Virus record (IMG/VR): IMGVR_UViG_2939702853_000005
Span: 9,323 to 73,322 of that record
Length of the DNA stretch: 64,000 bases
Reading direction: 5' to 3' (one strand)
From: a virus
Taxonomy: Duplodnaviria; Caudoviricetes
Shown here: positions 18,834-37,549 of the stretch, piece after piece
Position numbering within the stretch: the first letter of the stretch is position 1
Layout: each line of letters starts with the position of its first letter
Translations under genes and position numbers: made by a program
Notes under the pieces: model-generated
Seen by the model: only the letters and a program-made list of their open reading frames with translations
Database searches by the model: none
What the model was told of the DNA's origin: nothing

Positions 18834-21800
18834 TTATAAATTAAAGCCATAATTATTTCCTAAAATACCTCTCTTGGATTGTGTCTTAGCGGCATCAATC
18901 AATTTGGTTAAGATAGTCGATCCTGAATCCTTATCGTTTGCATGAATTTCTACCTTCTCAATGTGAATACTGTTATCGCTAGAGGCAGTAGAAGTATTAT
19001 TGTTTTTAACAATATTGGGGTTAAACGTACTCTTAACCGAATCGACGATGCCGCGGGTTACATCAATGATTTTCAACAAGTTTCCTGTATCGCTTTTATT
19101 TAAGATTAATTCCTTTTGGTGAGCCAATAAGAATTGACCTTCTTTAGGCATATTAGCAGGAGTCATACCGCCAGTTTCAGCAGAGAACGGTTTGATCTTA
19201 TTCAGATAGTCATATGACCCATCTGGGAATCCCCATTTAGAACGCATCGCATCATTTTCTTGTTTTAATTGTTTGAATTGCGCCTGAAGACTTTTAATCT
19301 TATTGGTATCAGGTTTTTTCTCTCTCTGAAGCTGAACTACTTGTTTGGAGATGTTCTCAGCCTTTTGTTTATTAGACAAATATTTGTCCCAATCACCTTT
19401 TTGGCTTGCCTTGTCATCACCTTTACCTGTTCCTGTCCCACCGCCAATTCCTACACTAGAACCGTTGCCTATACCGCTATCCAAATTCAAGAAATCATCG
19501 AGTCTACCTTGATCCATAGAAAGACTATCTAACATGTTCTGCATTTGCTTGCTTGTTTCTAATGATTGTTCTTGGAGGAAAGTGAAGAACTTCGAATACT
19601 CGCCTTTTAATTCATCAATCACAGATTTAACCTTGGTCTTATCGTCGCTCATAAGATCCTGTTTCATCCTGTAGAAACGCTGCTCATCTTCTAAAATATC
19701 ATCATACTTTTGCTCTGTAAGTTCTTTTTCTCTTTCGATGTTATCAGTAATTGCGTCATGAGTTCGATCTTCAGTATCTTTGGTCTTATCTAAATACTTC
19801 TTACGGTCTTCGAGCTGGTCATTTAAACCTTCTTTACGCAATTCACGCTCACGATCAAGTTTAAACTTGTCGATTTCTTCATTCTTTGCATCTAGCTGAT
19901 CGGTTAATTCTTTCCTTTTAGCTTTAGCTTCGTAAGAATTGTTCAACGCAAGCTCATTAATTTTATCTTGAATCTTTTGACGCTCGTCTAGCTTCTTCTT
20001 TAGTTCCTTGTCATAATCATCTGATTCACTTGTCCGATCCAATTCTTGAAGTTGACGTTTAATGATCTCTTCAAATCGGTCTGATTCTTCCTCAAGATTT
20101 TTTAATCGAGCTTCATGCCTTTTATCCTCAGCTTCTTTTTGCTTATCGATAGCCTTTAAAGCCAAATCCTTCTGTTTCTCAACCATCTTCTTATAAGCCT
20201 CAATAATCTTATCAGCAGCAGCAGATTTTATGGAGTAGATCGCATTGTTATACTCAATGTTCTTCAGAGTTAAATCTTGCAAACGTTTAGACAATTCTTC
20301 TTTGTTCTGCAAATTTAACTTTTCATTTTTCAATTGTCTCTCTACAGCTAAAATTTCTTTTTCTGTAGCTACACGTTGCTCGTTTATCAGCCCAATCTGA
20401 GTAATAAGCTCTTGTTGATATGCCTTCGAATTTTCGTCCAACGATTCCATACGAGCCTTAGAAAGAGCTATCTTATCAGCAGCAGCATTAACCTTCTTCT
20501 CATATTCATCAAGATTAGAGACAATAACAGCATAGTATTTTTCCTGTTTCTGTTGTTCAAGCTCCCACCACTTTGTACTGTTGGAAGATTTTTGTTTATC
20601 AAACTCACCAGCCGTAATCTTATTTTGCTTAACAAGGTTATCCAAGTTGATATTCTGAGATACAAGTTCTTTTTGCTGCGCTGTTAGCGACTTAATTTGA
20701 GCAGATTCCTCTTTTCGCCAGTTTGCTGACACTTGATCATATTTAGCCTGTCTGCCTTGAGATTTAGCAATGTCAACATCCAAGGCATCCAACTTGTTCT
20801 GGCTCATTGTTACGTAGTTTTCAATATAATCTACACGAGCTTTATAAATGTTATCGTATGCAGTTGTTCTATTTTTCCGCGCATCTTCTTGAGCCTTATC
20901 CATATCAGAAGCAGAAGGGAGAGTGTACTTGTTTTTAGATTTCCCGCCCGTAACAGAAGAAGTGTCGCCATTATAGTATCTCAATACGTTGCCTACATAA
21001 TTTACGTCACCATAAATCTTGCTGCCTAATTTGTTCTTTTGCATGGCAGAGAACTTTTTCATGTTCTCAGCGCTGTATCCACCATTTTTATTAAAATAAT
21101 CCAGTATTCCCGGCCCCATGTTATACATAGCCAAAGCAACGTCCACATTACCCGTTTGATTTAAATACTTAGCAAACATTGAAGTTCCAGTCTTAATACT
21201 ACTTTCAACGCTAGTATTTTTACCAAGGCTACTGACCTGCATAACATTTTTTATACCATTAGCACCATTGGAGGATTCTTGCTGGATGATGGCTTTGATT
21301 AGCGCAGGGTCTACGCCATTAGCTCCAGCATATTTGTTTATCAAGTCGGCGTTTTTACCAGTTACTTTTGTAGATGTAGAAGTAGAGGGAGACTGAATTT
21401 CTGGAATAGCATTTGCACCGGGAACACGTCTTGCTCCACTATATCTAGTAGACCAATACTTGTCGTTCAGATTCCCTTGCTTTATTCCAGAGTCGCCCAT
21501 CTGCATAAAGTTACCGTCACCCATGTAGAAACCAACATGAGAATTAGCCTTGCCTTTGATAGTATTGAAGAATACAAGGTCGCCTTTTTGCAAATCCTTT
21601 TTATTGGTTACGGCTTGACCCTGCTTAACTTGTTCTTGAGTAGTTCGGGGCAGTTTAATATCAAGGAACTCTTTAAACATTTGCTGCACAAATAGAGAGC
21701 AGTCGGATACAGCAGTAGCTGTAAATTGATCGTAACTAACATTTGATTTAGCAGCTTGACTATATTTGAACGTTTTGGACGAAGACAAGGACAAAGCTTC

Positions 21801-24800
21801 GGAAATCATCGAATCTAAGCCAGTTCCACCTTTTGTAGTAGTGGTAACTTTAGTAGACACTAACTTAGATGGATCTTTAATGCCTTCTGTATACAATTCA
21901 GCTTGCTTTTCAAGAAGTTTTATTTGTTCCTTTAAAGCCTTGCCGTATTCCTCTGTTCCTTTTTTTAATCGACTCATTCGACTAGTTTGTGCATCTTGAG
22001 CAGCAGCAATCGCTTTAAGCTTCTTCTGAGTTTCGGTTAAAATTTCATTAGTCTCTGACAAAGAATCATTATATTGTTCATTTTTCTTTGTAGCTTCTTT
22101 GCTAACACCTAAGTCAGGATCGCTAAATATACCCAACATTTCTTTGGCTTGTTTGGATTTCTCGTCAAGAGCAGATGTAAACTTATCTAATTCACTTCGT
22201 TGTTCTTCAAGTACTTTTGTTCTAAAAGTTGGAACCTCTTGATCTTTTGAAATTCCTAAAGCATTCTTTAACCCATCTGTCATAGGTAATTTGCTTTTAG
22301 CAATCTCTTCATCTATCTTAACAAGCGCTTTCTTAGCGTCTGCTAGATCCTTTATGCTATTAAGCTCAAGACCATAAGCGTTAATGTTGCTAATAACAGA
22401 GTTAATGTTGTTAATTTCACGCTGCTTTTCGCCTTCTAATGCTTGTTTAACCATTAGGATTTGTGCTTGTCTTAGATTCTCAATTGCTCCATTTTCAAGA
22501 ACATAACCATCCTTGACTTTCTTGATACTAGCCGCCAATTGAGGATTTTTCTTTATGAGGTCGGCAACAGTAGCAGCACTTAGGTAGCCATTTTTCTGCT
22601 GGTCATACATGATTTGATTCAATGTCTTTAATTCAGATGCAGAGTCATCTAATGTCTTATTTAACTTTTCCCTAGATTCAGAAGCGTCTTCGGTAGCATT
22701 GGCAACCTTACCCTCTGTGGCAGCTAATTGATCTGATTTGAGTGTGCTTTCAGCGTATAGGACATTAACATCAGCCATGCTGTTTCTTAAGTTAAGAAGT
22801 TCTACTTTTAGTTTATCTACTGCTTTTTTTTGTTCTTCGTATTCTTTTACTCTGAATTGATGTACATTAGGCCCTTTTAAATACAATGCTTTATTATTAA
22901 GAGTGGCTTCAGCCTTAGCTATTTCATCTTGCTTGTCTTTAATATCTTGATTAATAGAGTTTTTTTGAGAGATTAAACTTTGACGGTTCAATTCTTCTTT
23001 TTCAAGTTTTAAAGCCTTCAATACTGCAATTTCTTTATTTGCAGCTTCTTCTGTAAATCCTGCCGCCTTCAGTCTTGCCAATCCTTCATCACCAATGGTA
23101 ACAGCTATAGCTTTTGAAATTTCATCTAATTGCTTTTTCGCCTTGCCTTGGGCTATTTCTGATAGAGTACCGCTATTGACAACCTTGGTAAGATCATTGT
23201 GTGCCTTAATTAATTTAGGAAAGAAGTCGATTTGTCTATCTATTTGACTTATCTGTTGTTCTCTAGCCGAGATATTATCTTTAATCTTTTGTGTTTCATC
23301 TCTTTGAGCTTTTTCTGCTGTTCCCATTCCAAGTGCTAGGGAGGCTAGTAAACCAATAGCTACAGATATACCCATAGTTGCTACACTTGTCATAACAGCG
23401 GCTCTTGCAGAAGCAGCAGTTTGTGCATTAATTGCTACTGTAGTTGCCTCTGTAGCAACCGTTCTTCCAACTTCGGCGGTTGTAGCAGTTCTAGAAGTAA
23501 CTGCATGTGCAGCATTAGCCACTGAACTGGCAGTTACAGCAGTAGTTTCAGAATTCGTAACTACGACTAATCCTTGTCTCATACCTCTAACAACAGTTAA
23601 TGAATCAATCACATTTTTTACAGGAGATTTTAAAGCAAGGAAAGCTGCACCCAACCCCACAGTAGCAGCAGTTACACCGAAAACACTTGAAGGTATCTTT
23701 GTTAAACCAATAAACAGTTGATCGGTTATGTCGAGTACAGTTTTAATCATACTTCGCAATCCATCGTTACCAGCAGTATTGAATATATCAATGAAAGAGG
23801 TTTTTACTTGTGATGCTTTGCGAGAGATAGTATCCATCTGGGTAGTCAAGTACTCTAATGTTGAACCAGTTGAACCGATAGAATATGCCGTACCAAGTAG
23901 GATATCACCCGGATTTAATGAAGCAGCCAATTTAGCGTATTGATAAACCCCACGGGAAATAGCCGCGTATGATTGAGTTAAATCATAGTTTTTATCTGTA
24001 ACAGCAACAGAAAGGTCAAGTAGAATATCTTCAGCCTTACGCCATTGCTCAACACCATTTACAACTTCCTTGGTTTTAACACCTAACTTTTCAATTTCAC
24101 TAACTGCTTTACCTGTACGAATAGTACCCAATACGGTTTTCCACATGTTACCCAAGTTTTCACCAGATAAAGCAGTATTACGCATACCCGATGAAATCAA
24201 ACCGTTCATAAAATCAAAACTAACACCAGTCTCTTGAGCAATTTTACCTGTGCGTTCAAATGCTGCACCCAAGTCTCTAGCAGGAGCCATAGTTTCGTGC
24301 GCTACCTTGCTCCAAGAGTCAAGGATTCGACCTCCATATAGTTGTGCATCATTTGTATTCTTAAGTTGTACACCATATTGAGCAAGCACAGATTCCATTG
24401 ATTTTGTGGCATCTTCAAGACTCACCAGGTCAACTGTTGAAAGCATAGTAGATTGACGCACTAGGGTCTGAACAACACCAACATCTTTATACATACGACC
24501 CCAGAGACGTGCAGACTCAATTACGTCATTAATAGCAGCGCCTTGATCGTGTGCTGTTTGAATGAATTGTTTAGATTGATCATTGACTTTTTGCATGTCT
24601 AAAGCGCCGTGTTGCAAGCCTTGGAAGTAATGTTCGTTAGTCTGGATATATCCAGCCATCTTTGTTTCAATATCAACCATACCTTTAAATCCTTCTGAAA
24701 TAGAAGAAAATACAGTACCATACAACGCACCAGCAATTAAATGTGCGCCAATCGACTTGAATGCATGGCTAACCTTATCGCCAAATGACTGAACTTGCGT

Positions 24801-25826
24801 ACTTGCAGTTTTAGCGGAAGACTCTAAATCCCTGAATCCTTGTTGTATCTGTTTGATTTTATTTTTCAAACCAGAATCATTAATGTCTAATTTTGAAGCA
24901 TTGTTCAAAAGAGAAGTCAGATCAGCTTGATTAACTGTTGACCCATATTTAGTATTTAAACGTTTAGCGCTTGCTTCAGCTTGTTGTTTAAACTCATTCA
25001 GATTTTGGAGTTTACTTTGATTGGTTTTCGTTTCAGATATTTCTTGTTGTCGTAGGTTTCTAGTCCACCAATCCGCGTATTCTTTTCTAGATTGTTGATT
25101 TTTTAAATCAGCGGCTCTTTGTAGTTCAGCATTCTTTTGAATACCCTGCTGTTGATTTGTTGCTAGTTGTCTCTCTGAATCTCTAACTCTTTCCATAGAC
25201 TTAATACGTCCATCATACATCTGATTGACAAGAGACTCTTGATCTTTCAACATTTTAGCATGGTTAATTATCTCGTCGTACTTCTTTACAGTGCCATTTT
25301 GATCAATATTAGCTGTAACTTTTTGTCCAGTTTCTTTATTTTCGTATGTATTTTTATAACCAACTACTTGACCTTTACCATTCTTAATAGCTTTCTCGTT
25401 TGCTAGATTATAGCCTTTTAACTCAGCTTCCAATTGTTGAATTGACTTTCGTTGTTTATCATATGCTTCAGTCTCTTGCTGTAACTTCATTCTATGTTCA
25501 TCAATAACTTTATTGGTCTTGGTAATGATATTGTTGTCGGCTGATCTTAGTTCAGTTATTTTTTCTATGCTTCCATCTAATCGTTTATATGTAGTTGTAG
25601 TTTCACTAACAATCTTATTTTGCTGCTCCATTGCTAAATTTAACTTATTGGCAGCGGATACAAAGCTATTCATAGTTGCTACAAAACTCTTATCAATATT
25701 GATTTTAATATTCAAACTTTGAAGAGAAGGGTGTTTGCTTAGAGCCTTCAATTTTTCATTGATGTTTTTAACACTGGAACCCATATTGAGGTCAGCTTGC
25801 ACTAAAATTTTTAATCTATCAGGCAT
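18834..25826 (-). CDS. Tape measure protein with NlpC/P60 peptidase and SLT lytic transglycosylase domains
   Basis: 2330 aa, mostly coiled coil; DCSLFVQ...LPRT...GDLVFF...HVGFYMGDG; GVDPALIKAIIQQESS...ALAMYNMGPG. Confidence 0.93.
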   Translation of the reverse strand: MPDRLKILVQADLNMGSSVKNINEKLKALSKHPSLQSLNIKINIDKSFVATMNSFVSAANKLNLAMEQQNKIVSETTTTYKRLDGSIEKITELRSADNNIITKTNKVIDEHRMKLQQETEAYDKQRKSIQQLEAELKGYNLANEKAIKNGKGQVVGYKNTYENKETGQKVTANIDQNGTVKKYDEIINHAKMLKDQESLVNQMYDGRIKSMERVRDSERQLATNQQQGIQKNAELQRAADLKNQQSRKEYADWWTRNLRQQEISETKTNQSKLQNLNEFKQQAEASAKRLNTKYGSTVNQADLTSLLNNASKLDINDSGLKNKIKQIQQGFRDLESSAKTASTQVQSFGDKVSHAFKSIGAHLIAGALYGTVFSSISEGFKGMVDIETKMAGYIQTNEHYFQGLQHGALDMQKVNDQSKQFIQTAHDQGAAINDVIESARLWGRMYKDVGVVQTLVRQSTMLSTVDLVSLEDATKSMESVLAQYGVQLKNTNDAQLYGGRILDSWSKVAHETMAPARDLGAAFERTGKIAQETGVSFDFMNGLISSGMRNTALSGENLGNMWKTVLGTIRTGKAVSEIEKLGVKTKEVVNGVEQWRKAEDILLDLSVAVTDKNYDLTQSYAAISRGVYQYAKLAASLNPGDILLGTAYSIGSTGSTLEYLTTQMDTISRKASQVKTSFIDIFNTAGNDGLRSMIKTVLDITDQLFIGLTKIPSSVFGVTAATVGLGAAFLALKSPVKNVIDSLTVVRGMRQGLVVVTNSETTAVTASSVANAAHAVTSRTATTAEVGRTVATEATTVAINAQTAASARAAVMTSVATMGISVAIGLLASLALGMGTAEKAQRDETQKIKDNISAREQQISQIDRQIDFFPKLIKAHNDLTKVVNSGTLSEIAQGKAKKQLDEISKAIAVTIGDEGLARLKAAGFTEEAANKEIAVLKALKLEKEELNRQSLISQKNSINQDIKDKQDEIAKAEATLNNKALYLKGPNVHQFRVKEYEEQKKAVDKLKVELLNLRNSMADVNVLYAESTLKSDQLAATEGKVANATEDASESREKLNKTLDDSASELKTLNQIMYDQQKNGYLSAATVADLIKKNPQLAASIKKVKDGYVLENGAIENLRQAQILMVKQALEGEKQREINNINSVISNINAYGLELNSIKDLADAKKALVKIDEEIAKSKLPMTDGLKNALGISKDQEVPTFRTKVLEEQRSELDKFTSALDEKSKQAKEMLGIFSDPDLGVSKEATKKNEQYNDSLSETNEILTETQKKLKAIAAAQDAQTSRMSRLKKGTEEYGKALKEQIKLLEKQAELYTEGIKDPSKLVSTKVTTTTKGGTGLDSMISEALSLSSSKTFKYSQAAKSNVSYDQFTATAVSDCSLFVQQMFKEFLDIKLPRTTQEQVKQGQAVTNKKDLQKGDLVFFNTIKGKANSHVGFYMGDGNFMQMGDSGIKQGNLNDKYWSTRYSGARRVPGANAIPEIQSPSTSTSTKVTGKNADLINKYAGANGVDPALIKAIIQQESSNGANGIKNVMQVSSLGKNTSVESSIKTGTSMFAKYLNQTGNVDVALAMYNMGPGILDYFNKNGGYSAENMKKFSAMQKNKLGSKIYGDVNYVGNVLRYYNGDTSSVTGGKSKNKYTLPSASDMDKAQEDARKNRTTAYDNIYKARVDYIENYVTMSQNKLDALDVDIAKSQGRQAKYDQVSANWRKEESAQIKSLTAQQKELVSQNINLDNLVKQNKITAGEFDKQKSSNSTKWWELEQQKQEKYYAVIVSNLDEYEKKVNAAADKIALSKARMESLDENSKAYQQELITQIGLINEQRVATEKEILAVERQLKNEKLNLQNKEELSKRLQDLTLKNIEYNNAIYSIKSAAADKIIEAYKKMVEKQKDLALKAIDKQKEAEDKRHEARLKNLEEESDRFEEIIKRQLQELDRTSESDDYDKELKKKLDERQKIQDKINELALNNSYEAKAKRKELTDQLDAKNEEIDKFKLDRERELRKEGLNDQLEDRKKYLDKTKDTEDRTHDAITDNIEREKELTEQKYDDILEDEQRFYRMKQDLMSDDKTKVKSVIDELKGEYSKFFTFLQEQSLETSKQMQNMLDSLSMDQGRLDDFLNLDSGIGNGSSVGIGGGTGTGKGDDKASQKGDWDKYLSNKQKAENISKQVVQLQREKKPDTNKIKSLQAQFKQLKQENDAMRSKWGFPDGSYDYLNKIKPFSAETGGMTPANMPKEGQFLLAHQKELILNKSDTGNLLKIIDVTRGIVDSVKSTFNPNIVKNNNTSTASSDNSIHIEKVEIHANDKDSGSTILTKLIDAAKTQSKRGILGNNYGFNL

Positions 25827-25893
25827 TACGTTTAAGTCACTTCCTTTTTTTACTTTTATAAAATAGAAAAAAGAAGAGACTTAATATCTCTTC

Positions 25894-26316
25894 TTACTGT
25901 TCATCCTTATATTTAATTTGTTCTACAATTTCACAGAAACGGTCATACCAATCAGCAGCAATACCTTCAAACTCGGTGGGGCCACGATTAATTACCGATT
26001 CTTTGATAGATAGAAGCATCAATTTTCGTTCTTCGGTTTCATCGATAACGATTTCTTCTTTGTGTAAGCTGTGTATTTCCGACAGACGCTCATTGTTATT
26101 TTCAAACGTATACTTACCATCTTCTACAACAGGTTCACCGTCAGAGCCTTTAATGACATAATCCATATTTATATCATTTGTGTCGTTTAGAAATTCATCG
26201 TAGTGTTCTAGAAGGAGCTTCTTAAACTTTACTTTATGTCTACTGTCGGTTCTATCAGTCTTTAATGTATCGAGATAGGCAATAAAATTTTCAAGTTCAA
26301 ATTTGTATAGTTTCAT
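25894..26316 (-). CDS. Hypothetical phage protein (DUF1617-like)
   Basis: 140-aa acidic helical ORF with RBS, followed by terminator-like hairpin. Confidence 0.55.
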   Translation of the reverse strand: MKLYKFELENFIAYLDTLKTDRTDSRHKVKFKKLLLEHYDEFLNDTNDINMDYVIKGSDGEPVVEDGKYTFENNNERLSEIHSLHKEEIVIDETEERKLMLLSIKESVINRGPTEFEGIAADWYDRFCEIVEQIKYKDEQ

Positions 26317-26364: not shown

Positions 26365-26538
26365 TTACTTAATCCAACACGTGATGTGGGGTTCCTGCCA
26401 GCGCTCTTTATTGAAAAGAAGAGGATTATTAGGATAATGTTTATGAGATGGGAATGTTCTATCAAAAGTAAGAAGATAAAATGCCGCAATCTCTTCGGAT
26501 GTACCCTCGACTTTAATACCATTGATTTTAGCTTTCAT
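26365..26538 (-). CDS. Small hypothetical protein
   Basis: ATG at 26538 after GGAGGAG; MKAKINGIKVEGTSEEIA. Confidence 0.45.
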   Translation of the reverse strand: MKAKINGIKVEGTSEEIAAFYLLTFDRTFPSHKHYPNNPLLFNKERWQEPHITCWIK

Positions 26539-27574
26539 GTTCAACTCCTCCTTCGTCATCTTTACCAATATGGCTCTTCAGCTTGCCTAAACTCTTCCAT
26601 TTACGATCTTTAGCTGTTAAATCGTTGTAGATACGATACATGTCGGCACTCGTCCAACCCATAAGTTCAATAATAAAGTCTGACTCAAGTCCAATACGAG
26701 TTAGGTTTGTAACTAGATAGTGTCGAAGGGAGTGAAAATAGAAGGGGGTCTCCAAAAACTTTTCCCACTTAGTACTCCAACTTCTAACTGTACCGACCTC
26801 TGCTGGCTCACCATCCGATTTAATAAAGAGGAAGTCATGTTCTTTATTGTTCTTCAGCATAATCTTTTCTCGTTCAACGATCCAAGCTTGGTAATAAGGC
26901 CAGAACTTTTCTTTGAATATGTATTTATATAATAGCTTCCCTTGCTTACCAAAACCTTTAGTCTTAATTTCTTTAGTGGTTTCTAAGAATAGACCGTCAA
27001 AGGCCGTATTATTCTCATCAATAATCGAAGTTGTAAACCTCAGCAATTCAGAAACCCTTGCACCACTGTTTGCAGCCAAAGCGAGAAGACATGCTTCTTG
27101 AGGTTTATTCAAGTCATTACTCAAATGTTTGAGAAGGGCATCAACCTGTTCTTCGAGTAAAATAGTTTTCTCTCGAACAGGATTATTCTTAAGGTTGTCA
27201 ATCGATTTAAGAATAACATTACGGAAATTTGGATATTCATCATCAAAAAAGTTCTCAATAAAATTAGAAAAACTACTTAAACAAGATTTCATTCTACCGA
27301 AACGTTTGGGACTCCATTTAAGTTCTTCAATTGCATAACTAAAGAAATCAGAAAATTCTATCTTTTTAATGTCCACAAAGAACTTATTATCGTTCTCAAG
27401 GAGATTCCAAGTGAAAAATATATTCAAATCACTTTTATATCCCTTGATAGTTCCATCCGAGCATTTCATATTTTTTTCTTTTATAAAACGATTAATCATT
27501 TTAACGTTCTTTGGATTAAACTGTGCAGTTAATTCATCACTGGTGATTACTTTCATGTAAGTTTTTCTTGCCAT
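26528..27574 (-). CDS. Tyrosine recombinase in the tail region (YomM-like)
   Basis: Catalytic set ARVSE (R), TKG (K), HSLRH (HxxR), GW, C-terminal Y. Confidence 0.88.
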   Translation of the reverse strand: MARKTYMKVITSDELTAQFNPKNVKMINRFIKEKNMKCSDGTIKGYKSDLNIFFTWNLLENDNKFFVDIKKIEFSDFFSYAIEELKWSPKRFGRMKSCLSSFSNFIENFFDDEYPNFRNVILKSIDNLKNNPVREKTILLEEQVDALLKHLSNDLNKPQEACLLALAANSGARVSELLRFTTSIIDENNTAFDGLFLETTKEIKTKGFGKQGKLLYKYIFKEKFWPYYQAWIVEREKIMLKNNKEHDFLFIKSDGEPAEVGTVRSWSTKWEKFLETPFYFHSLRHYLVTNLTRIGLESDFIIELMGWTSADMYRIYNDLTAKDRKWKSLGKLKSHIGKDDEGGVEHES

Positions 27575-27677: not shown

Positions 27678-28112
27678 TTACTTAACTTCCACATCGAGTC
27701 CTTGTCGTTCCAATCCTCTATGAAGAGCTGCAACATGAGCATTTGTATTATGCAACTCCTCGACAGTCTTTTCGACGAATGGGCGAGGACGACCAGAATA
27801 AGCGAATTCAAAATCATAACCCTGTCCAGTTTCTACAACTAGGCTAACGTTCTTACTTCCATCCATACGCTGGCTTTCAATGGATACAGTATCTTGTCCA
27901 ATCATTTCAACTGCAATATTACGTTCATCGGTGAGACCCCCTTGATCGCGTTGCCTCTCATAGACAGTAGGAGTGTATACATCATAAACATTATCCTCTA
28001 TGGACTGTTTCAAATTATCTTTAACTGTGTGAGCGACATCAACTTGCAAAGCTGAAGCGATTTTTTGCTTCAATAGTCTTTCCAATTCAGCAAAATTATT
28101 CGCTGTCGGCAT
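27678..28112 (-). CDS. Tail completion protein (HK97 gp10-like)
   Basis: VYDVYTP..YER...GGL and PRPFVEKT motifs; likely start ATG 28112. Confidence 0.6.
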   Translation of the reverse strand: MPTANNFAELERLLKQKIASALQVDVAHTVKDNLKQSIEDNVYDVYTPTVYERQRDQGGLTDERNIAVEMIGQDTVSIESQRMDGSKNVSLVVETGQGYDFEFAYSGRPRPFVEKTVEELHNTNAHVAALHRGLERQGLDVEVK

Positions 28113-28575
28113 CAGAGTTTGCCTCGTTACTATTCGTTTCTTCATTTGCTTTTCTTTCAATCTCAGCAAAATTATCTGCTATTTCCTTAAAACGCTTCTC
28201 TAATTTTTTGACCTGAATCTCAGGTAATTTATTTACTACTTCTACGAAAATGTTTGTGTTCAATAAATTCTCATACACCTTAATCAAAGTCTGAAAGTCA
28301 TTTTTATTAGGAATGGGGAGGTCTGTAAATTCTCGCAACATCAAAGTAGATCCAATTTGTGAAGCAATTTGACTGAATGTTAATTCTGTAAGTTGTGATT
28401 TTTCAATCCCTTGGACAACTTCTATGAGTCCTGTAAAAATGTTGTTGATTGAACTTTCTTTGAAGTTTTGCTTAATAGTCACTTCAAATTGACCATCCAG
28501 AATGGGATGTGTTTTCGTCTGTTCAAGCTCTTTGCTGAGTTTATTCAATTCTGTAGCTGTTATTTTTTTAGTCAA
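28096..28575 (-). CDS. Putative tail assembly chaperone
   Basis: 159-aa helical ORF between tail tube block and tape measure. Confidence 0.45.
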   Translation of the reverse strand: MTKKITATELNKLSKELEQTKTHPILDGQFEVTIKQNFKESSINNIFTGLIEVVQGIEKSQLTELTFSQIASQIGSTLMLREFTDLPIPNKNDFQTLIKVYENLLNTNIFVEVVNKLPEIQVKKLEKRFKEIADNFAEIERKANEETNSNEANSDADSE

Positions 28576-28590
28576 TAATCACACTCTCCT

Positions 28591-29685
28591 TTATTGTGGA
28601 AATGTTTCGTCCAACACCTTAGACCATTTCTCTTCCCATCTTTTACTATCAAATGCCATCGAAACTTCTCGGGCATTCTTACCAAATGTTTCGGCTTTAT
28701 CTCTATTGTGATATAAATACTCAATTGAATTGCATAGATTGTCTACAGTAGGCTTGATCAGTAATCCATTGTATCCATCGATAATTAGATCGCTTAATCC
28801 ACCTACACAGCTAGCTATAACTGGCTTTCCAAATGCCTGTGCTTCAATGCAGCTCAAACTTGTACCTTCTGCACCGAGAGTGGGGATTAATACTATGTCT
28901 GCTTGTTCGTAAGCACGATACATCTTATTCATATCAAAATGTTCCCATCGAACTCGATCTTGAGTATTTACCCATCGCTTAAATTGCTGTTCGCCTTCAA
29001 TAGTGCCTCTGCCTACAAAGTAAAACTCCATGTCTTTGTATTTGGGGAGAAGTTTCTTAGATGCTTCAGCCGCCAACAAATATCCTCTTAATTCATGAAG
29101 TCTGCGAGGAATAAGCACTGTAAATTTACCTTTTCCTTTTTTCTCTCTAGGTTTAAAGGTGTCGGTATTGACATAGTTCGGTATGTATTCAAATTTATCA
29201 TATAGTTTTGGATATAAAGCTTTAGTCCAACCAATAGTGTTTGTATCTACAGAAACAATTTTTCCTACACGGCGGTAGCAGTCTCTAATGTATTCATTGT
29301 ATCCTTTAGCGTGATACCAGTCTTGAATTTCATTGTCCCACCAGATACCATGTGAAATGGCAATGGAGTTCTTTCGAGCTTCTGGAAAAGCAAGGGTGGC
29401 AACAAAATAGATAGTGTAATCATAATTCTCTGTCCGTTTATGAAACTCAATCGTTAAATCTGGAAAAGATTCTTTGTCACCAATGGGGCAGGGGATACCA
29501 GTTATTTTTACATCCTTGAAACTCTTTACCCAAGACGTAGTGGATGCTTGAAAAACATCTACACTATAATTCTTTTTTCTTAATAGACGTACAAGATCAA
29601 TTAAATACCTTTCGCCGCCACCCATTTGAGTATATGTTCCAGTTAGATCAAAGAATTGCGTTGTCAAAAGTGCTACTTTTTTCAT
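28591..29685 (-). CDS. Glycosyltransferase family 4 (GT-B)
   Basis: MGGGERY; EGTSLSCIEAQAFGKPVIASCVGGLSDLI signature; start ATG 29685 after GGAG. Confidence 0.92.
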   Translation of the reverse strand: MKKVALLTTQFFDLTGTYTQMGGGERYLIDLVRLLRKKNYSVDVFQASTTSWVKSFKDVKITGIPCPIGDKESFPDLTIEFHKRTENYDYTIYFVATLAFPEARKNSIAISHGIWWDNEIQDWYHAKGYNEYIRDCYRRVGKIVSVDTNTIGWTKALYPKLYDKFEYIPNYVNTDTFKPREKKGKGKFTVLIPRRLHELRGYLLAAEASKKLLPKYKDMEFYFVGRGTIEGEQQFKRWVNTQDRVRWEHFDMNKMYRAYEQADIVLIPTLGAEGTSLSCIEAQAFGKPVIASCVGGLSDLIIDGYNGLLIKPTVDNLCNSIEYLYHNRDKAETFGKNAREVSMAFDSKRWEEKWSKVLDETFPQ

Positions 29686-30682
29686 CTTTTTCTCCTTTGA
29701 AAAATTCCTTAATAGCGCCGTTAATGATTTCAAATCTATCATCCCATGAATTGTATTTAGCCATTTCTTTGGCTTTATTTTTGTAGTCATTACACTTAGA
29801 TACTTTAATTGCTTTATGAATATTTTTTATGAATTCTTTGTGGTTTCTGCTTACAAATACTACATCTTTATAATCATCCATTTCAGGAATATCGGTTGCT
29901 ACTACTGGAGTGCCATGAGCAAGTGATTCATAAACTTTCAAAGGATTACTGAAGTCACTGATTTGACAGCGTTGAAACGGGAGAAGGGTAACATCTGCGT
30001 GATGATAATAAGCTTGAAGTTCTTGGTATCCTTTTGAACCCAAATAATGAACCCCTTTAGGCATTTCTTTAATACCCCAAGGAAGTCCAACAACCAAAAC
30101 TTGATATTTCTTCGCTATTTTCTCCATAAGCAATAGGTCGCACCAATTCGACGTGAGCGCACCTGAGAATAATACGATAGGCTTATTTCTTTTATTGAAT
30201 GGAGTCAAGTCTTCAGGAATAGGATAGTCGAGATCTCCTAATTCATTAAAACAAGCATTTCGAACCAAGTGTACATTTTTATGTTGCTTACTTCTTAGTT
30301 CTAGCAGAGGTTTAGAAGCAGCCAATAAAATATCTGCCTTACTTATCATGTTTACTTCTTCATGTTCGTTTTCTGGGAAATTGTCCAGAGAATCGTAAAT
30401 AACTAAATCGGCTTCAATACTCTCTAAATCCATATGACGCATAGCCCAAGAAGAAAAATATATGTCAACTTTAGGATTTCTCTTTAAAAAGACTTCCCAG
30501 TTATGATAAACCTCAAGTGTATCAGAGATGCGATCACGCACTTTGTCTGTTCGTTGAGTGTAATTAACCCAATAGACCATGTACCCATTTTCAGAAAAAT
30601 ACTTCATAAGATGATGCGGTCGCTGTTGTAATGGCTGATCGAAGTCAATAGTATTGGCATAAACAATCGTTTTTTGTTTCAT
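29648..30682 (-). CDS. Glycosyltransferase, GT4/TuaH-like (GT-B)
   Basis: QRPHHLM; YDSLD; SNPLKVYESLAHGTPVVAT; NSWDDR. Confidence 0.88.
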   Translation of the reverse strand: MKQKTIVYANTIDFDQPLQQRPHHLMKYFSENGYMVYWVNYTQRTDKVRDRISDTLEVYHNWEVFLKRNPKVDIYFSSWAMRHMDLESIEADLVIYDSLDNFPENEHEEVNMISKADILLAASKPLLELRSKQHKNVHLVRNACFNELGDLDYPIPEDLTPFNKRNKPIVLFSGALTSNWCDLLLMEKIAKKYQVLVVGLPWGIKEMPKGVHYLGSKGYQELQAYYHHADVTLLPFQRCQISDFSNPLKVYESLAHGTPVVATDIPEMDDYKDVVFVSRNHKEFIKNIHKAIKVSKCNDYKNKAKEMAKYNSWDDRFEIINGAIKEFFKGEKDEKSSTFDNAIL

Positions 30683-31441
30683 TTAGTTCTCCCTAAGATA
30701 TCTTTCTAAATAATCTTGTGACATAATATGATGCGAGAACACGCCTAAATCACAGTAAAGCTCAAACCCTTTGTCTTGAGCCATCTTGCAAAAATATGCG
30801 TCCTCTCCTTGTGGATGAAATCCGTATTTTACTGATTTATAAACTTTGCGACTTAACATGATAATTGCTCCCGTAAGATCAACCTGTATAAGAACAGAAG
30901 ATGGGAGGAAGGGTGCATTTTTCACTTGATTATTTACAATATGTTCAAAGTAACCCTTGGTATTAATCTTCATGATGTTAGGAAATAAATATGGTTTATC
31001 AGGATTAGAGATATAGCCGTTCCAAATTAATCCCGACACAATATCTCGTTTATGCTTGAGTAGATTATTAATGATATCAGGTTGAACGAGGATATCCGTG
31101 TCTATAAACATCAGATGATCAGTTTTAGTCTTTGACATGATATAATTCCGTAATTTACTCAAATGAGTATATATATAATTGTTTCTTACATTTAAATCTC
31201 TTTTATCTACTGGTGCATTGCGATTATATACATCAATTCGTATATTTTTATATGTATGTTTATTTTCTTTTTTGAAACTATTCAAAATATCCAACGAAAT
31301 ATCTTCAGAATCGTTTACTACGAATAATAATTCCATCTTTGCTTTTGGATAATCAATGTCCAGAATATGTTGTAAATAAGAAGGAAGAATCCAAGCTCTA
31401 TTTCTAATTGGTGCAGCTATTGTGACTGTTGACGTATTCAA
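30683..31441 (-). CDS. Glycosyltransferase family 2 (GT-A)
   Basis: VTIAAPIRNR..., VVNDSED, DxD motif FIDTD, GEDAYFC. Confidence 0.9.
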   Translation of the reverse strand: MNTSTVTIAAPIRNRAWILPSYLQHILDIDYPKAKMELLFVVNDSEDISLDILNSFKKENKHTYKNIRIDVYNRNAPVDKRDLNVRNNYIYTHLSKLRNYIMSKTKTDHLMFIDTDILVQPDIINNLLKHKRDIVSGLIWNGYISNPDKPYLFPNIMKINTKGYFEHIVNNQVKNAPFLPSSVLIQVDLTGAIIMLSRKVYKSVKYGFHPQGEDAYFCKMAQDKGFELYCDLGVFSHHIMSQDYLERYLREN

Positions 31442-31460
31442 AACTTTCTCCTTTTATGGC

Positions 31461-31488
31461 ATAGCCAAGTCCCGAAGGACTCAGCTAT
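31461..31488 (-). other. Stable cUUCGg hairpin between tail tube and GT genes, without U-tract
   Basis: Minus strand ATAGCTGAGTCC-TTCG-GGACTTGGCTAT. Confidence 0.55.
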
Positions 31489-31499
31489 AATTTTATTGT

Positions 31500-32297
31500 T
31501 TAAATCATTTCATTTGCATCATAAATGGTCATAGTATAAAGCTGTGTGCTATTTTGTGGTTTTAGAATTTCCAAAGGAATGTCAAATACCGAAGGATCGC
31601 CACCGGCAGCCATATCAATTTTCCATCCATCTTCCATTTTGGCATTTGTGATATCAATCTGAGCCGCATAATCCTGTTTATCTCCAACTGCTCGAACAAT
31701 GACATCAAGTATAACTCTATATGTTCCAGCAAACTTATCAGAAGAGACGGTAATAGTTTTCGCAGATGCACCTGATTGAGTTTTGTAGTATGCAACGATT
31801 TCTGTGTTATCTTCAAACTCTCCATCGGAAAAGGTCAATTCTTTACCAGTAATGGAATATGTGCCTTTACTCAAGGCTCCCACAGCGAATTCAATCTCTT
31901 TTTCGTGAACACCTTCATTTGAAAGCAGATATACGCTATTCAATCCTTCGACTGGAGTCGCTGGAGTATAGTTAAGTGTAGCTTTATTATTAACGATTTT
32001 AATTTCATCACGTTGAATAATTGGTGCTACACCTTTTTGGATATCATTTCCTGTCATCATCGCAATTACTTCATTTGTAAATACTGCATCTTGCAAAGGA
32101 ACCTTTGCGCCTCTGTTACCAGAAAACCCAACAATTTTGTTGTTTCCTTCGCCACCTTGGGCATAGACAGTATCTGCTGAATTCTCAATTCCAGAAGTCT
32201 TTAAATTTTTAAGTTGAACTTTTGCTTTACCCGTTTTCAGGTCGTAAAATGTAGCTTTGGCAACTGCTCGAATTGCCCAAATATCTGGCGTTGACAT
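31500..32297 (-). CDS. Major tail tube protein (YomU-like)
   Basis: LKTSGIENSADTVYAQGG.GN, ITVSSDKFAGTYRV...D, W..DMAAGGDPSVFD; position after head-tail genes. Confidence 0.8.
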   Translation of the reverse strand: MSTPDIWAIRAVAKATFYDLKTGKAKVQLKNLKTSGIENSADTVYAQGGEGNNKIVGFSGNRGAKVPLQDAVFTNEVIAMMTGNDIQKGVAPIIQRDEIKIVNNKATLNYTPATPVEGLNSVYLLSNEGVHEKEIEFAVGALSKGTYSITGKELTFSDGEFEDNTEIVAYYKTQSGASAKTITVSSDKFAGTYRVILDVIVRAVGDKQDYAAQIDITNAKMEDGWKIDMAAGGDPSVFDIPLEILKPQNSTQLYTMTIYDANEMI

Positions 32298-36400: not shown

Positions 36401-36432
36401 AAAAAAGGTCGATAAGAATATACTTACCGACC
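36401..36432 (-). terminator. Intrinsic terminator after major capsid gene
   Basis: Minus strand GGTCGGTAAG-TATATT-CTTATCGACC-TTTTTT. Confidence 0.65.
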
Positions 36433-36439
36433 AATGATT

Positions 36440-37549
36440 TTATGAGAATTTATACAAACCATAAGCTGCTGCGGTAATCAACTGCACATCGTAATGCTGT
36501 GCAACAGAGTAACCCACAGTACGATCTGCGTTATCTTCTGGTTTGGATTGAGTGATTTCTGTGTTACCTTCGAATCCAATTTTAACAAGCTTATCAGAGC
36601 CAGAAGAGAGTACAACGGCGAAGTCACCGTCAATAGCAAAATCATCGCTATTCGGTTTCAAACGTTGTCCAATTTCAAACAGTTCTGTTCCTTGGAAATT
36701 GCCCAAATGTCCAGTTTTATTAAACTCTTGTCCAAGACCAAATTGAAGGTATTGATTTTCGGGTAGGATACGGGCAAGAGCAGTCTTAGTGCCGAACACT
36801 ACACTCTTATCTGTGTTATTTGCAGCAGAAACACGTTGAACCAGATTGTTGAAAGCTGTAGAAGTAAATGCTGCATTTTCTTTATATTTAGCACCCAGAG
36901 TAGTAAAAGAGTCATAAATAGAAGAGTAGATGCGAGTAGTGATATCTGTTTCAATTGCCTGAGCCACACGTGCAACCCATGCTCCCCAATTTGTTTTTCC
37001 TGCGAGTACTCGGTACAATTCTTCATAAATCTCTACAGTTCTACGTTGAGGTGTAAGCGTTACATCTTTTCCGAACAAACGTTGACGTTGATTGCCGCGT
37101 TGCCCGTTAGCCTTTGTACTAACCACAAACAAATCAGGGCTGTCTACGTGAAACAGAAGTTGATCTCCCCAATTTACATTCTTAACATCAGCAAATTGAT
37201 AAAAACTATCAAGCACTGTTTCAGGGATGACAATATCCAATGTTTGAGCGACCAAGGCAAAAGTAGCCCATTGGACATTTGGATTAGAAGCGATCATACC
37301 TTCAGTAAAATTAGTATCAGATGGAATACCTGCTAGACGGTAAGCCTCTTTTTTCAAGCCTTTGGTAAACAATTCTTGTTTTGCGTCAAGGTTTACACCA
37401 TCATTTGCATACTGAGCATACTTATTAAAACGACCATCTTTGTTGCGGTTTTGATAGCAATAGTGATACCATGCTTCCACCCCAGCTTGTACAACATCTT
37501 TTTCGGTTTGTGACATATTAAAAAACTTAAGATTACTATAGTTTTTCAT
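36440..37549 (-). CDS. Major capsid protein (YonB-like, HK97 fold)
   Basis: 369 aa after decoration and scaffold genes; FADVKNVNWGDQ..F, G.F.GTEL.EI pattern; followed by terminator. Confidence 0.82.
   Translation of the reverse strand: MKNYSNLKFFNMSQTEKDVVQAGVEAWYHYCYQNRNKDGRFNKYAQYANDGVNLDAKQELFTKGLKKEAYRLAGIPSDTNFTEGMIASNPNVQWATFALVAQTLDIVIPETVLDSFYQFADVKNVNWGDQLLFHVDSPDLFVVSTKANGQRGNQRQRLFGKDVTLTPQRRTVEIYEELYRVLAGKTNWGAWVARVAQAIETDITTRIYSSIYDSFTTLGAKYKENAAFTSTAFNNLVQRVSAANNTDKSVVFGTKTALARILPENQYLQFGLGQEFNKTGHLGNFQGTELFEIGQRLKPNSDDFAIDGDFAVVLSSGSDKLVKIGFEGNTEITQSKPEDNADRTVGYSVAQHYDVQLITAAAYGLYKFS

What the first reader, a model, noticed from the sequence alone, without database searches (positions are those of the whole stretch)
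28591..32297. Three soluble glycosyltransferases directly behind the major tail tube gene: candidate virion glycosylation system in a Firmicutes phage
A GT2, a TuaH-like GT4 and a second GT4 are abutting or overlapping and co-oriented, inserted between the tail tube gene and the chaperone/completion genes, so they should be expressed late with structural proteins. None has an evident TM segment, and the window has no GtrA flippase, GtrB-type membrane partner or sugar-synthesis gene, which argues against classical serotype conversion. Placement away from replication genes argues against DNA hypermodification. Capsid/tail glycosylation by phage GTs is established for some actinobacteriophages; I am not aware of it for SPbeta-like Bacillales phages. 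An initiating GT-A plus two elongating GT-B enzymes could build a glycan on tube, capsid or the Ser/Thr-rich fibres, shielding virions or altering adsorption. A cUUCGg hairpin without U-tract at 31461-31488 may tune tube versus GT mRNA levels.
Basis: partly seen in the sequence, partly recalled or inferred. Interest (0 to 1): 0.85.

Follow-up and report, generated by a model that had tools for sequence, protein, structure and literature searches.

The report
Glycosyltransferase cassette beside phage tail-tube gene
A large Paenibacillus prophage carries three intact, soluble sugar-transferring enzymes wired into its tail operon right after the tail-tube gene, and relatives keep this gene set next to the tube gene, so the phage probably sugar-coats its own particle, which has so far been shown only for mycobacterial phages and is not proven here.

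Summary
Three co-oriented, abutting or overlapping glycosyltransferase genes lie between the tail-tube gene and the tail chaperone genes of a large Paenibacillus prophage: GT1 (GT-A, Anp1-like), GT2 (GT-B) and GT3 (GT4). None has a membrane segment. All three are under purifying selection.

There is no room for a separate promoter, and the essential chaperone and tape-measure genes lie downstream. Late co-transcription is therefore the likely regime (inferred).

New here:
- GT1 plus a GT2-type partner is a conserved core with variable extra transferases.
- This core sits directly after an SPR-type tube gene in all 22 distinct IMG/VR relatives and all 8 copies in the genus sample.
- It sits about 2 kb upstream of the tube gene in a second, apparently tail-only element found in 21 of 93 Paenibacillus genomes.
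- Distant homologues lie in the head modules of other viruses, including an archaeal one.
- Isolated relatives and several Paenibacillus prophages lack the cassette, so it is accessory.

Virion protein glycosylation is the best reading (about 0.45). Cytoplasmic modification of wall polymers remains a serious rival. The enzymes are not detectably related to the mycobacteriophage ones, and the C-terminal acceptor pattern is absent.

First readers of this scan noted the same cassette on other genomes, and many analogous candidates in other phage lineages.

The parts
31500..32297 (-). Major tail tube protein (265 aa), SPR-type
   Evidence: phrog_2729 at 3e-52. Homologues are annotated tail tube or major tail protein in Bacillus phages. 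The AF2 model matches SPR tail tube structures 8ygm/8xkn at TMq 0.71-0.72, E 8e-15.
31460..31489 (-). 13-bp GC-rich hairpin with UUCG loop directly after the tube stop codon, without a U-tract
   Evidence: Fold dG -20.7 kcal/mol, z -3.4. A hairpin sits at the same position in 13 of the 14 relatives examined, most of them followed by a T-run.
30683..31441 (-). GT1: 252-aa GT-A glycosyltransferase (Anp1/GT62-like; DxD at D114-x-D116)
   Evidence: Pfam Anp1 6.5e-14. Invariant DxD and ED motifs in 13 homologues. AF2 pLDDT 94.9. Nearest folds are COLGALT1 (TMq 0.75), Mnn9 and the LH3 GT domain. dN/dS 0.09-0.18.
29648..30682 (-). GT2: 344-aa GT-B glycosyltransferase
   Evidence: Glyco_trans_1_4 1.6e-11. 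A family of about 330-345-aa homologues, mostly metagenomic. Pairs with GT1 in most related and several distant loci. dN/dS 0.06-0.17.
28591..29685 (-). GT3: 364-aa GT4 (GT-B) glycosyltransferase; the ORF is open up to 29790
   Evidence: Glycos_transf_1 1.1e-24 and Glyco_transf_4 9e-8. 98% identical in four other prophages although dS is 0.28-0.34; dN/dS 0.02-0.05. Best solved sequence relative is TarM(Se) at 3e-11.
28096..28575 (-). First tail chaperone-like gene (159 aa), 15 nt after GT3
   Evidence: phrog_7383. In relatives without the cassette, its homologue directly follows the tube gene.
27678..28169 (-). Second chaperone-like gene (163 aa), overlapping the first by 74 nt
   Evidence: phrog_19892. 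Synteny with Sundance gp031/032.
18834..25826 (-). Tape measure protein (2330 aa), downstream in the same operon
   Evidence: ORF. 76-92% identical to the tape measure proteins of related loci. The Sundance homologue is annotated as tape measure.

Best explanation
The three genes form an accessory glycan-building cassette of a large temperate Paenibacillus siphophage. They lie downstream of the attenuating hairpin that follows the tail-tube gene and upstream of the essential chaperone and tape-measure genes. They are therefore most likely transcribed by read-through late in infection, at low, catalytic levels (inferred from the architecture).

All three are soluble Leloir-type enzymes that draw on host nucleotide-sugar pools. 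GT1 (GT-A) together with a GT2-type GT-B enzyme is the conserved core. GT3 and other transferases in relatives are exchangeable additions that vary the glycan.

The most likely acceptor is a phage structural protein, glycosylated in the cytoplasm before or during assembly. The exposed middle domain of the SPR-type tube protein is the prime candidate, and the capsid is a possible second one. The result would be a glycan coat on the virion, as in mycobacteriophages (inferred; no acceptor site identified).
For: Gene structure and coupling.

No promoter signal above chance (39 found against 46 expected), and no terminator between GT1 and the tape-measure gene except the post-tube hairpin.

Purifying selection acts on all three genes.

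Position in relatives:
- In 22 of 22 distinct IMG/VR GT1 homologues (39-82% identity), a tube-family gene lies one or two genes upstream.
- 19 of those 22 have a GT2-family gene just downstream.
- All 8 close copies in the 93-genome genus sample abut a tube gene.
- A second lineage (GT1-like at 36-39% identity) has GT1-like plus GT2-like about 2 kb upstream of a tube of about 20% identity in 21 genomes. That cluster has host genes on the upstream flank and no recognised head genes.
- Distant GT1 homologues lie between terminase and portal, before the protease and major head genes, or in the head module of archaeal virus PhiF1.

Four cassette types keep GT1 but swap partners: GT-B, GT8 or GT32-like.

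No membrane segments, GtrA, nucleotide-sugar genes or thymidylate-synthase homologue are on the contig.

GT1's nearest folds are protein glycosyltransferases: COLGALT1, LH3 and Mnn9.

Against: - There is no direct evidence of any glycan.
- Tube and capsid lack Ser/Thr-rich tails and lack a shared C-terminal Ser; the tube ends ...NEMI.
- GT1 identity does not follow tube type. The tube is 20% identical where GT1 is 75% identical, and each of two tube types occurs both with and without the cassette at 64-74% identity.
- GT3 resembles the wall-teichoic-acid enzyme TarM, and RmlT and TarS appear among GT1's fold and sequence matches.
- One distant GT1 homologue lies beside an exonuclease gene, not a structural gene.
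- In the second lineage a 240-nt gap separates the transferase genes from the tube gene, so co-transcription there is not assured.
- Related genomes are not independent samples.
Confidence: 0.45

Rival explanations
1. The enzymes glycosylate a host cell-wall polymer (wall teichoic acid or secondary cell-wall polymer) at the cytoplasmic face, as TarM, TarS and the prophage-encoded TarP do. This would mask the phage's or tailocin's own receptor, giving superinfection exclusion, protection of progeny from adsorbing to debris, or self-immunity.
For: Soluble GT-A and GT-B enzymes are exactly what Gram-positive bacteria use for this. GT3's best solved sequence relative is TarM(Se) at 3e-11. TarS and RmlT appear among GT1's matches. 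The cassette is accessory and polymorphic, as expected for a receptor-related trait. Its presence in a tail-only cluster would fit self-immunity.
Against: Placement in the middle of a late operon, with no own promoter or terminator, is unlike known conversion genes. Two or three transferases are more than the single sugar usually added to teichoic acid. GT1 is a bare 252-aa catalytic domain with no extra polymer-binding or oligomerisation domain. The link is to the tube gene, 15-25 kb away from the distal tail and fibre genes. Distant homologues sit in head modules.
Confidence: 0.25
2. The site between the tube terminator and the chaperones is simply a permissive insertion point, and the cassette makes some other product, such as a glycolipid or a glycosylated small molecule or non-virion protein.
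For: Extra unrelated genes are also inserted at this spot in some relatives: 412, 378, 326 and 146 aa. Some distant GT1 homologues lie outside structural modules. No acceptor feature was found.
Against: The same GT1/GT2 pair also sits beside the tube gene in a different arrangement (upstream), and in head modules elsewhere. Strong purifying selection, and 22 of 22 positional conservation across 39-82% identity.
Confidence: 0.15
3. The enzymes glycosylate phage DNA (base hypermodification) to escape restriction.
For: Phage DNA glycosylation can use several transferases, and group transfer occurs late, before packaging (PMC13326640 abstract).
Against: Known glycosylated pyrimidines start from a phage thymidylate-synthase homologue. 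The genome has one such gene, on another contig, at 424 bits to the ThyA model. Homologues occur in a cluster without recognisable head or packaging genes. The cassette is far from the replication genes.
Confidence: 0.04

Closest known systems
Mycobacteriophage virion O-glycosylation (Che8, Corndog/cluster O, Myrna; Freeman et al. 2023, known here only through citing papers PMC11600133 and PMC12619734)
   Same: Phage-encoded sets of two to four soluble glycosyltransferases (three tandem genes in cluster O). The targets are capsid and tail tube. The trait is accessory.
   Different: tblastn of GT1, GT2 and GT3 against 50,697 phage records found no actinophage homologue. No mycobacteriophage appears among the top 50 viral fold matches. 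Glycans there sit at the C-termini of capsid and tube, and no shared C-terminal motif exists here. The host phylum differs. Here the genes are glued to the tube gene.
Wall-teichoic-acid glycosyltransferases TarM (GT4), TarS and the prophage-encoded TarP (GT2) of staphylococci, and RmlT of Listeria
   Same: Soluble cytoplasmic GT-A or GT-B enzymes of Bacillota. GT3 matches TarM(Se) at 3e-11. TarS and RmlT are among GT1's matches.
   Different: Those enzymes act singly and carry extra oligomerisation or polymer-binding domains. As far as I know they are expressed by the cell or the lysogen, not from inside a tail operon (own knowledge).
Collagen hydroxylysine galactosyltransferase COLGALT1, the LH3 GT domain and yeast Mnn9 (GT25/GT62-type GT-A enzymes)
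   Same: These are the best fold and profile matches of GT1: TMq 0.75, E 7e-17, profile 2e-12. They are Mn-dependent DxD enzymes acting on protein-linked acceptors.
   Different: Only 13-18% identity, and eukaryotic luminal enzymes. No collagen-like Gly-X-Y repeats are encoded in the window.
Cytoplasmic glycosylation of serine-rich repeat adhesins (GtfA/B, Gtf3, GT8 enzymes, GT-D dGT1) and of the Bacillus spore surface (SpsA, CgeB) (own knowledge)
   Same: Mixed sets of soluble GT4, GT8, GT2 and GT-D enzymes in Bacillota build variable glycans on protein surfaces inside the cell. Related cassettes here contain GT8, CgeB-type (PF13524) and GT-D-like genes. SpsA is a fold neighbour of GT1.
   Different: No serine-rich repeat acceptor is present, and no specific homology was shown.
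Phage SPR tail tube protein, the trigger of the DSR2 NADase defence
   Same: The window's tube has the same two-domain fold. DSR2 binds monomeric tube protein (PMC10981675). A full-length DSR2 exists in the genus.
   Different: Only 18% identity. SPR and SPbeta are not reported to carry transferases here. No link between glycosylation and DSR2 is known.

Membership tests
Mycobacteriophage-type virion glycosylation system | Phage-encoded glycosyltransferases expressed with structural genes | tested here: met
   Three transferase genes lie inside the tail operon. Expression timing is inferred, not measured.
Mycobacteriophage-type virion glycosylation system | Transferases homologous to those of Che8, Corndog or Myrna | tested here: not met
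   tblastn of all three proteins against the phage collection gave no actinophage hit. No mycobacteriophage protein appears in the top 50 BFVD fold matches.
Mycobacteriophage-type virion glycosylation system | Acceptor at the C-termini of both capsid and tail tube | tested here: not met
   The tube ends ...DANEMI. The capsid ends ...YKFS here but ...YKFA...NSLA and ...IMQI in cassette-bearing relatives.
Mycobacteriophage-type virion glycosylation system | Glycan demonstrated on virion proteins | not testable with these tools
   Needs mass spectrometry of virions.
GT-A fold DxD glycosyltransferase (Anp1/GT62-like) | Family profile above the curated cut-off, DxD motif, GT-A fold | tested here: met
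   PF03452 scores 52.4 bits against 28.8. D114 and D116 are invariant. pLDDT 94.9, with GT-A neighbours.
GT4 / GT-B glycosyltransferases (GT2, GT3) | Glycos_transf_1-type C-terminal domain above the cut-off | tested here: met
   GT3: PF00534 87.4 bits. GT2: PF13692 45 bits and PF00534 34.3 bits.
TuaH (teichuronic acid biosynthesis) | NCBIfam equivalog score of at least 550 bits | tested here: not met
   GT2 scores 44.2 bits.
Gtr-type serotype conversion (GtrA/GtrB/GtrC) | GtrA flippase and membrane-bound transferases in the element | tested here: not met
   The three GtrA-family genes of the genome lie on other contigs. The GTs have no membrane helix.
TarM/TarS/TarP-type teichoic acid glycosyltransferase | Specific similarity plus a polymer-binding or oligomerisation domain | tested here: inconclusive
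   GT3 matches TarM at 3e-11 only over the generic C-terminal domain. GT1 is a bare catalytic domain. Activity is not testable here.
Phage DNA glycosylation (hypermodified pyrimidines) | Phage thymidylate-synthase homologue that makes the hydroxylated base | tested here: not met
   The only PF00303 gene of the genome is on contig C10. The requirement is taken from PMC13326640.
SPR-type tail tube protein | Two-domain tube fold matching SPR TTP | tested here: met
   8ygm and 8xkn at TMq 0.71-0.72, TMt 0.77-0.78, E about 1e-14.

The most novel reading that the evidence does not exclude
The cassette glycosylates newly made monomers of the SPR-type tube protein, and one benefit is to blunt tube-sensing abortive-infection defences such as DSR2. 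DSR2 is triggered by monomeric tube protein and is present in the genus. This would explain why the transferase genes cling to the tube gene in two different gene orders. It would be a post-translational, glycan-based anti-defence mechanism.
Probability: 0.06. Interest if true: 0.85.

Novelty: new variant of a known kind. Interest (0 to 1): 0.6.

Why it matters
Virion glycosylation by phage-encoded enzymes has been shown only for mycobacteriophages, where it affects antibody recognition. A second, unrelated enzyme set in phages of Bacillota would show that sugar-coating of phage particles arose more than once and is widespread. This set has a conserved core pair, exchangeable partners and a tight link to the tail-tube gene.

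If confirmed, it would give a defined three-gene system to test what the glycan does: stability, adsorption, or evasion of defences. It would also point to a possible glycosylated tailocin. The enzymes could serve as soluble protein-glycosylation tools. All of this rests on an experiment that has not been done.

Tried and rejected
- RNA evidence: no RNA holder was listed for the 10-kb stretch, so expression timing could not be read.
Contexts of distant homologues came from IMG/VR and genome loci instead.
- The primary paper on mycobacteriophage glycosylation is not held. Only citing papers were used.
- The promoter scan gave no enrichment.
- Searches for acceptor signatures found nothing distinctive: no Ser/Thr-rich segments in structural proteins, no collagen-like repeats, no C-terminal Ser or Gly-Ser on tube and capsid.
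- Comparison of tubes with and without the cassette showed differences only in the generally variable middle domain.
- PADLOC gave no hit for the three enzymes.
- NCBIfam names were all far below cut-off.
- Literature searches found no report of virion glycosylation in phages of Bacillota in the held library.
- The idea that the second lineage is a complete prophage was dropped once its upstream flank proved to be host rib and scp genes.
Full report
WHAT IS THERE

The window is part of contig C11 of a 5.1-Mb genome. Its closest protein relatives come from Paenibacillus, mostly the polymyxa group. On the minus strand runs a long late operon of a large siphophage-type prophage:
- capsid (36440-37549)
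- head-tail genes
- a 265-aa protein (31500-32297)
- three glycosyltransferase genes
- two overlapping chaperone-like genes
- a tyrosine recombinase
- a 140-aa gene
- a 2330-aa tape measure

The 265-aa protein is a tail tube. It belongs to phrog_2729, and its homologues in Bacillus phages are annotated tail tube or major tail protein. [quoted passage not shown]

THE THREE ENZYMES

- GT1 (30683-31441) is a minimal GT-A enzyme. It passes the Anp1 family cut-off and has an invariant DxD. Its model is confident, with pLDDT 94.9.
- GT2 (29648-30682) and GT3 (28591-29685, from the internal ATG behind a good ribosome-binding site) are GT-B enzymes.
- None has a membrane segment.
- Pairwise dN/dS against four other prophages is 0.09-0.18 for GT1, 0.06-0.17 for GT2 and 0.02-0.05 for GT3. 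GT3 is kept at 98% protein identity although synonymous divergence is about 0.3.
- The names suggested by curated models are all far below threshold. 'TuaH' scores 44 against 550 bits.

EXPRESSION (INFERRED)

The tube stop codon is followed by a 13-bp UUCG hairpin without a U-tract and then directly by the GT1 ribosome-binding site. Thirteen of the 14 relatives examined have a non-homologous GC-rich hairpin at the same place, most of them with a T-run. It is therefore the usual attenuator after a major tail gene.

GT1 and GT2 abut, GT2 and GT3 overlap, and the chaperone gene starts 15 nt after GT3. Promoter-like sites are not above chance. The chaperones and tape measure can only be reached through the cassette, so the cassette should be transcribed with them. 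No RNA data could be found.

COMPARATIVE EVIDENCE

Isolated relatives have the tube gene followed directly by the chaperones. These are Brevibacillus Sundance, Lactococcus 949 and Alicyclobacillus KKP_3916. So do several Paenibacillus prophages. The cassette is therefore an accessory insertion.

Among IMG/VR contigs, all 22 distinct GT1 homologues of 39-82% identity have a tube-family gene one or two genes upstream, and 19 have a GT2-family gene just downstream.

Four cassette types share GT1:
- GT1+GT2+GT3
- GT1 plus a 40%-identical GT2 plus a CgeB-type GT-B
- GT1 plus one GT-B
- GT1 plus GT8 plus a GT32-like enzyme

In the 93-genome genus sample, all eight close GT1 copies abut a tube gene.

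A second lineage carries a GT1-like gene (36-39% identity), a GT2-like gene and a 212-aa gene about 2 kb upstream of a tube of about 20% identity. It occurs in 21 genomes. Its upstream flank is host riboflavin and scpAB genes, then a holin, an endolysin and a divergent GT-D-like gene. Downstream lie only tail-type genes. No terminase, portal or capsid was recognised in 60 kb.

More distant GT1 homologues (30-42% identity) lie between terminase and portal together with another transferase, or before the protease and major head genes, or after head-tail genes with a GT2-like partner, or in the head module of the archaeal virus PhiF1. One lies beside an exonuclease and one beside a nucleotide-sugar epimerase. 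Related genomes are not independent, so these counts describe a pattern and are not a test statistic.

WHAT THE ACCEPTOR MIGHT BE

GT1's nearest solved relatives by profile and by fold are collagen hydroxylysine galactosyltransferase, the LH3 transferase domain and Mnn9. Teichoic-acid enzymes (RmlT, TarS), polypeptide GalNAc-transferases and SpsA rank further down. GT3's best sequence match is TarM. This leans slightly towards a protein acceptor for GT1 but does not decide the question.

I found no acceptor signature:
- no Ser/Thr-rich tails
- no collagen-like repeats
- no shared C-terminal Ser on tube and capsid

GT1 identity follows the phage backbone rather than the tube type. Two tube types occur both with and without the cassette.

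RIVALS

Host-surface modification stays open, because Gram-positive teichoic-acid transferases are soluble. It could also explain an accessory, polymorphic trait. Against it stand the mid-operon position, the number of enzymes, the bare catalytic domain of GT1 and the head-module contexts elsewhere.

DNA glycosylation is unlikely. The known routes start from a phage thymidylate-synthase homologue, none is on the contig, and homologues occur in a cluster without packaging genes.

The contig also lacks GtrA, NTP-transferase and epimerase genes, so host sugar nucleotides must be used.

COMPARISON WITH WHAT IS KNOWN

[quoted passage not shown] This locus fails two membership features, enzyme homology and C-terminal acceptor. 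It should therefore be described as possibly working like that system, not as a member.

The tube's fold links it to SPR, whose monomeric tube protein triggers DSR2. A full-length DSR2 exists in one genus genome. A glycan-based escape from such sensors is not excluded. It is unlikely, however, because DSR2 binds the tube-forming domain that must stay free for assembly.

EARLIER NOTES OF THIS SCAN

First readers flagged the same three-gene cassette on other genomes. Many follow-ups proposed virion glycosylation in other phage lineages, using a C-terminal Gly-Ser on capsid and tube as the hallmark. I tested that hallmark here and it is absent.

VERDICT

If true, it would be a new variant of a known kind.

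Noticed in passing
L022 (G002:C1:4161500-4181499) with L105 and L106; same layout in L023-L025: A roughly 30-kb cluster found in 21 of 93 Paenibacillus genomes. In order it holds a holin, an endolysin, a divergent GT-D-like gene, a GT1-like gene, a GT2-like gene, a 212-aa gene, an SPR-type tube, chaperones, a 1291-aa tape measure, distal tail proteins and very large fibre-like proteins. Host rib and scpAB genes flank it upstream, and no terminase, portal or capsid was recognised. It looks like a tail-only, F-type tailocin-like element with its own glycosyltransferases.
   Followed up: partly
window 26528-27574 (-): A tyrosine recombinase (Phage_integrase, 1.6e-20) sits inside the tail operon between the chaperones and the tape measure. 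The same placement is annotated in Brevibacillus phage Sundance and Lactococcus phage 949, so it is a conserved and unexplained feature of this phage group.
   Followed up: no
window 27678-28575 (-): The two chaperone-like ORFs overlap by 74 nt (28096-28169) in different frames. This is the layout expected for a programmed-frameshift tail assembly chaperone pair. No slippery site was sought.
   Followed up: no
L171:2258-5749 (G003): A full-length DSR2 defence protein (PADLOC Dsr2, 4e-140) lies in a Paenibacillus genome that also carries the tail-only cluster with an SPR-type tube.
   Followed up: partly
L021:8950-9657 (Methanobacterium virus PhiF1 ORF15): The only isolated virus with a GT1 homologue (31% identity, 2e-23) is an archaeal virus. 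The gene lies in the head module, upstream of the putative capsid gene.
   Followed up: no
L016:6713-7951; also L026, L041, L046: Some relatives have an extra gene of 326-412 aa inserted between the tube gene and GT1, or between GT1 and GT2. The 412-aa one has no Pfam family.
   Followed up: no
window 36407-36432 (-) and 25871-25895 (-): Canonical terminator-like hairpins with T-runs lie directly after the capsid gene and between the 140-aa gene and the tape measure. Together with the post-tube hairpin, this suggests stepwise attenuation along the late operon.
   Followed up: no
window 12589-13323 (-): A 244-aa protein with an N-terminal hydrophobic segment and a Ser/Thr/Pro-rich linker (16 of 30 residues) lies in the accessory island of the tail region. 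It is the only strongly Ser/Thr-rich protein in the window and probably not a virion protein.
   Followed up: no
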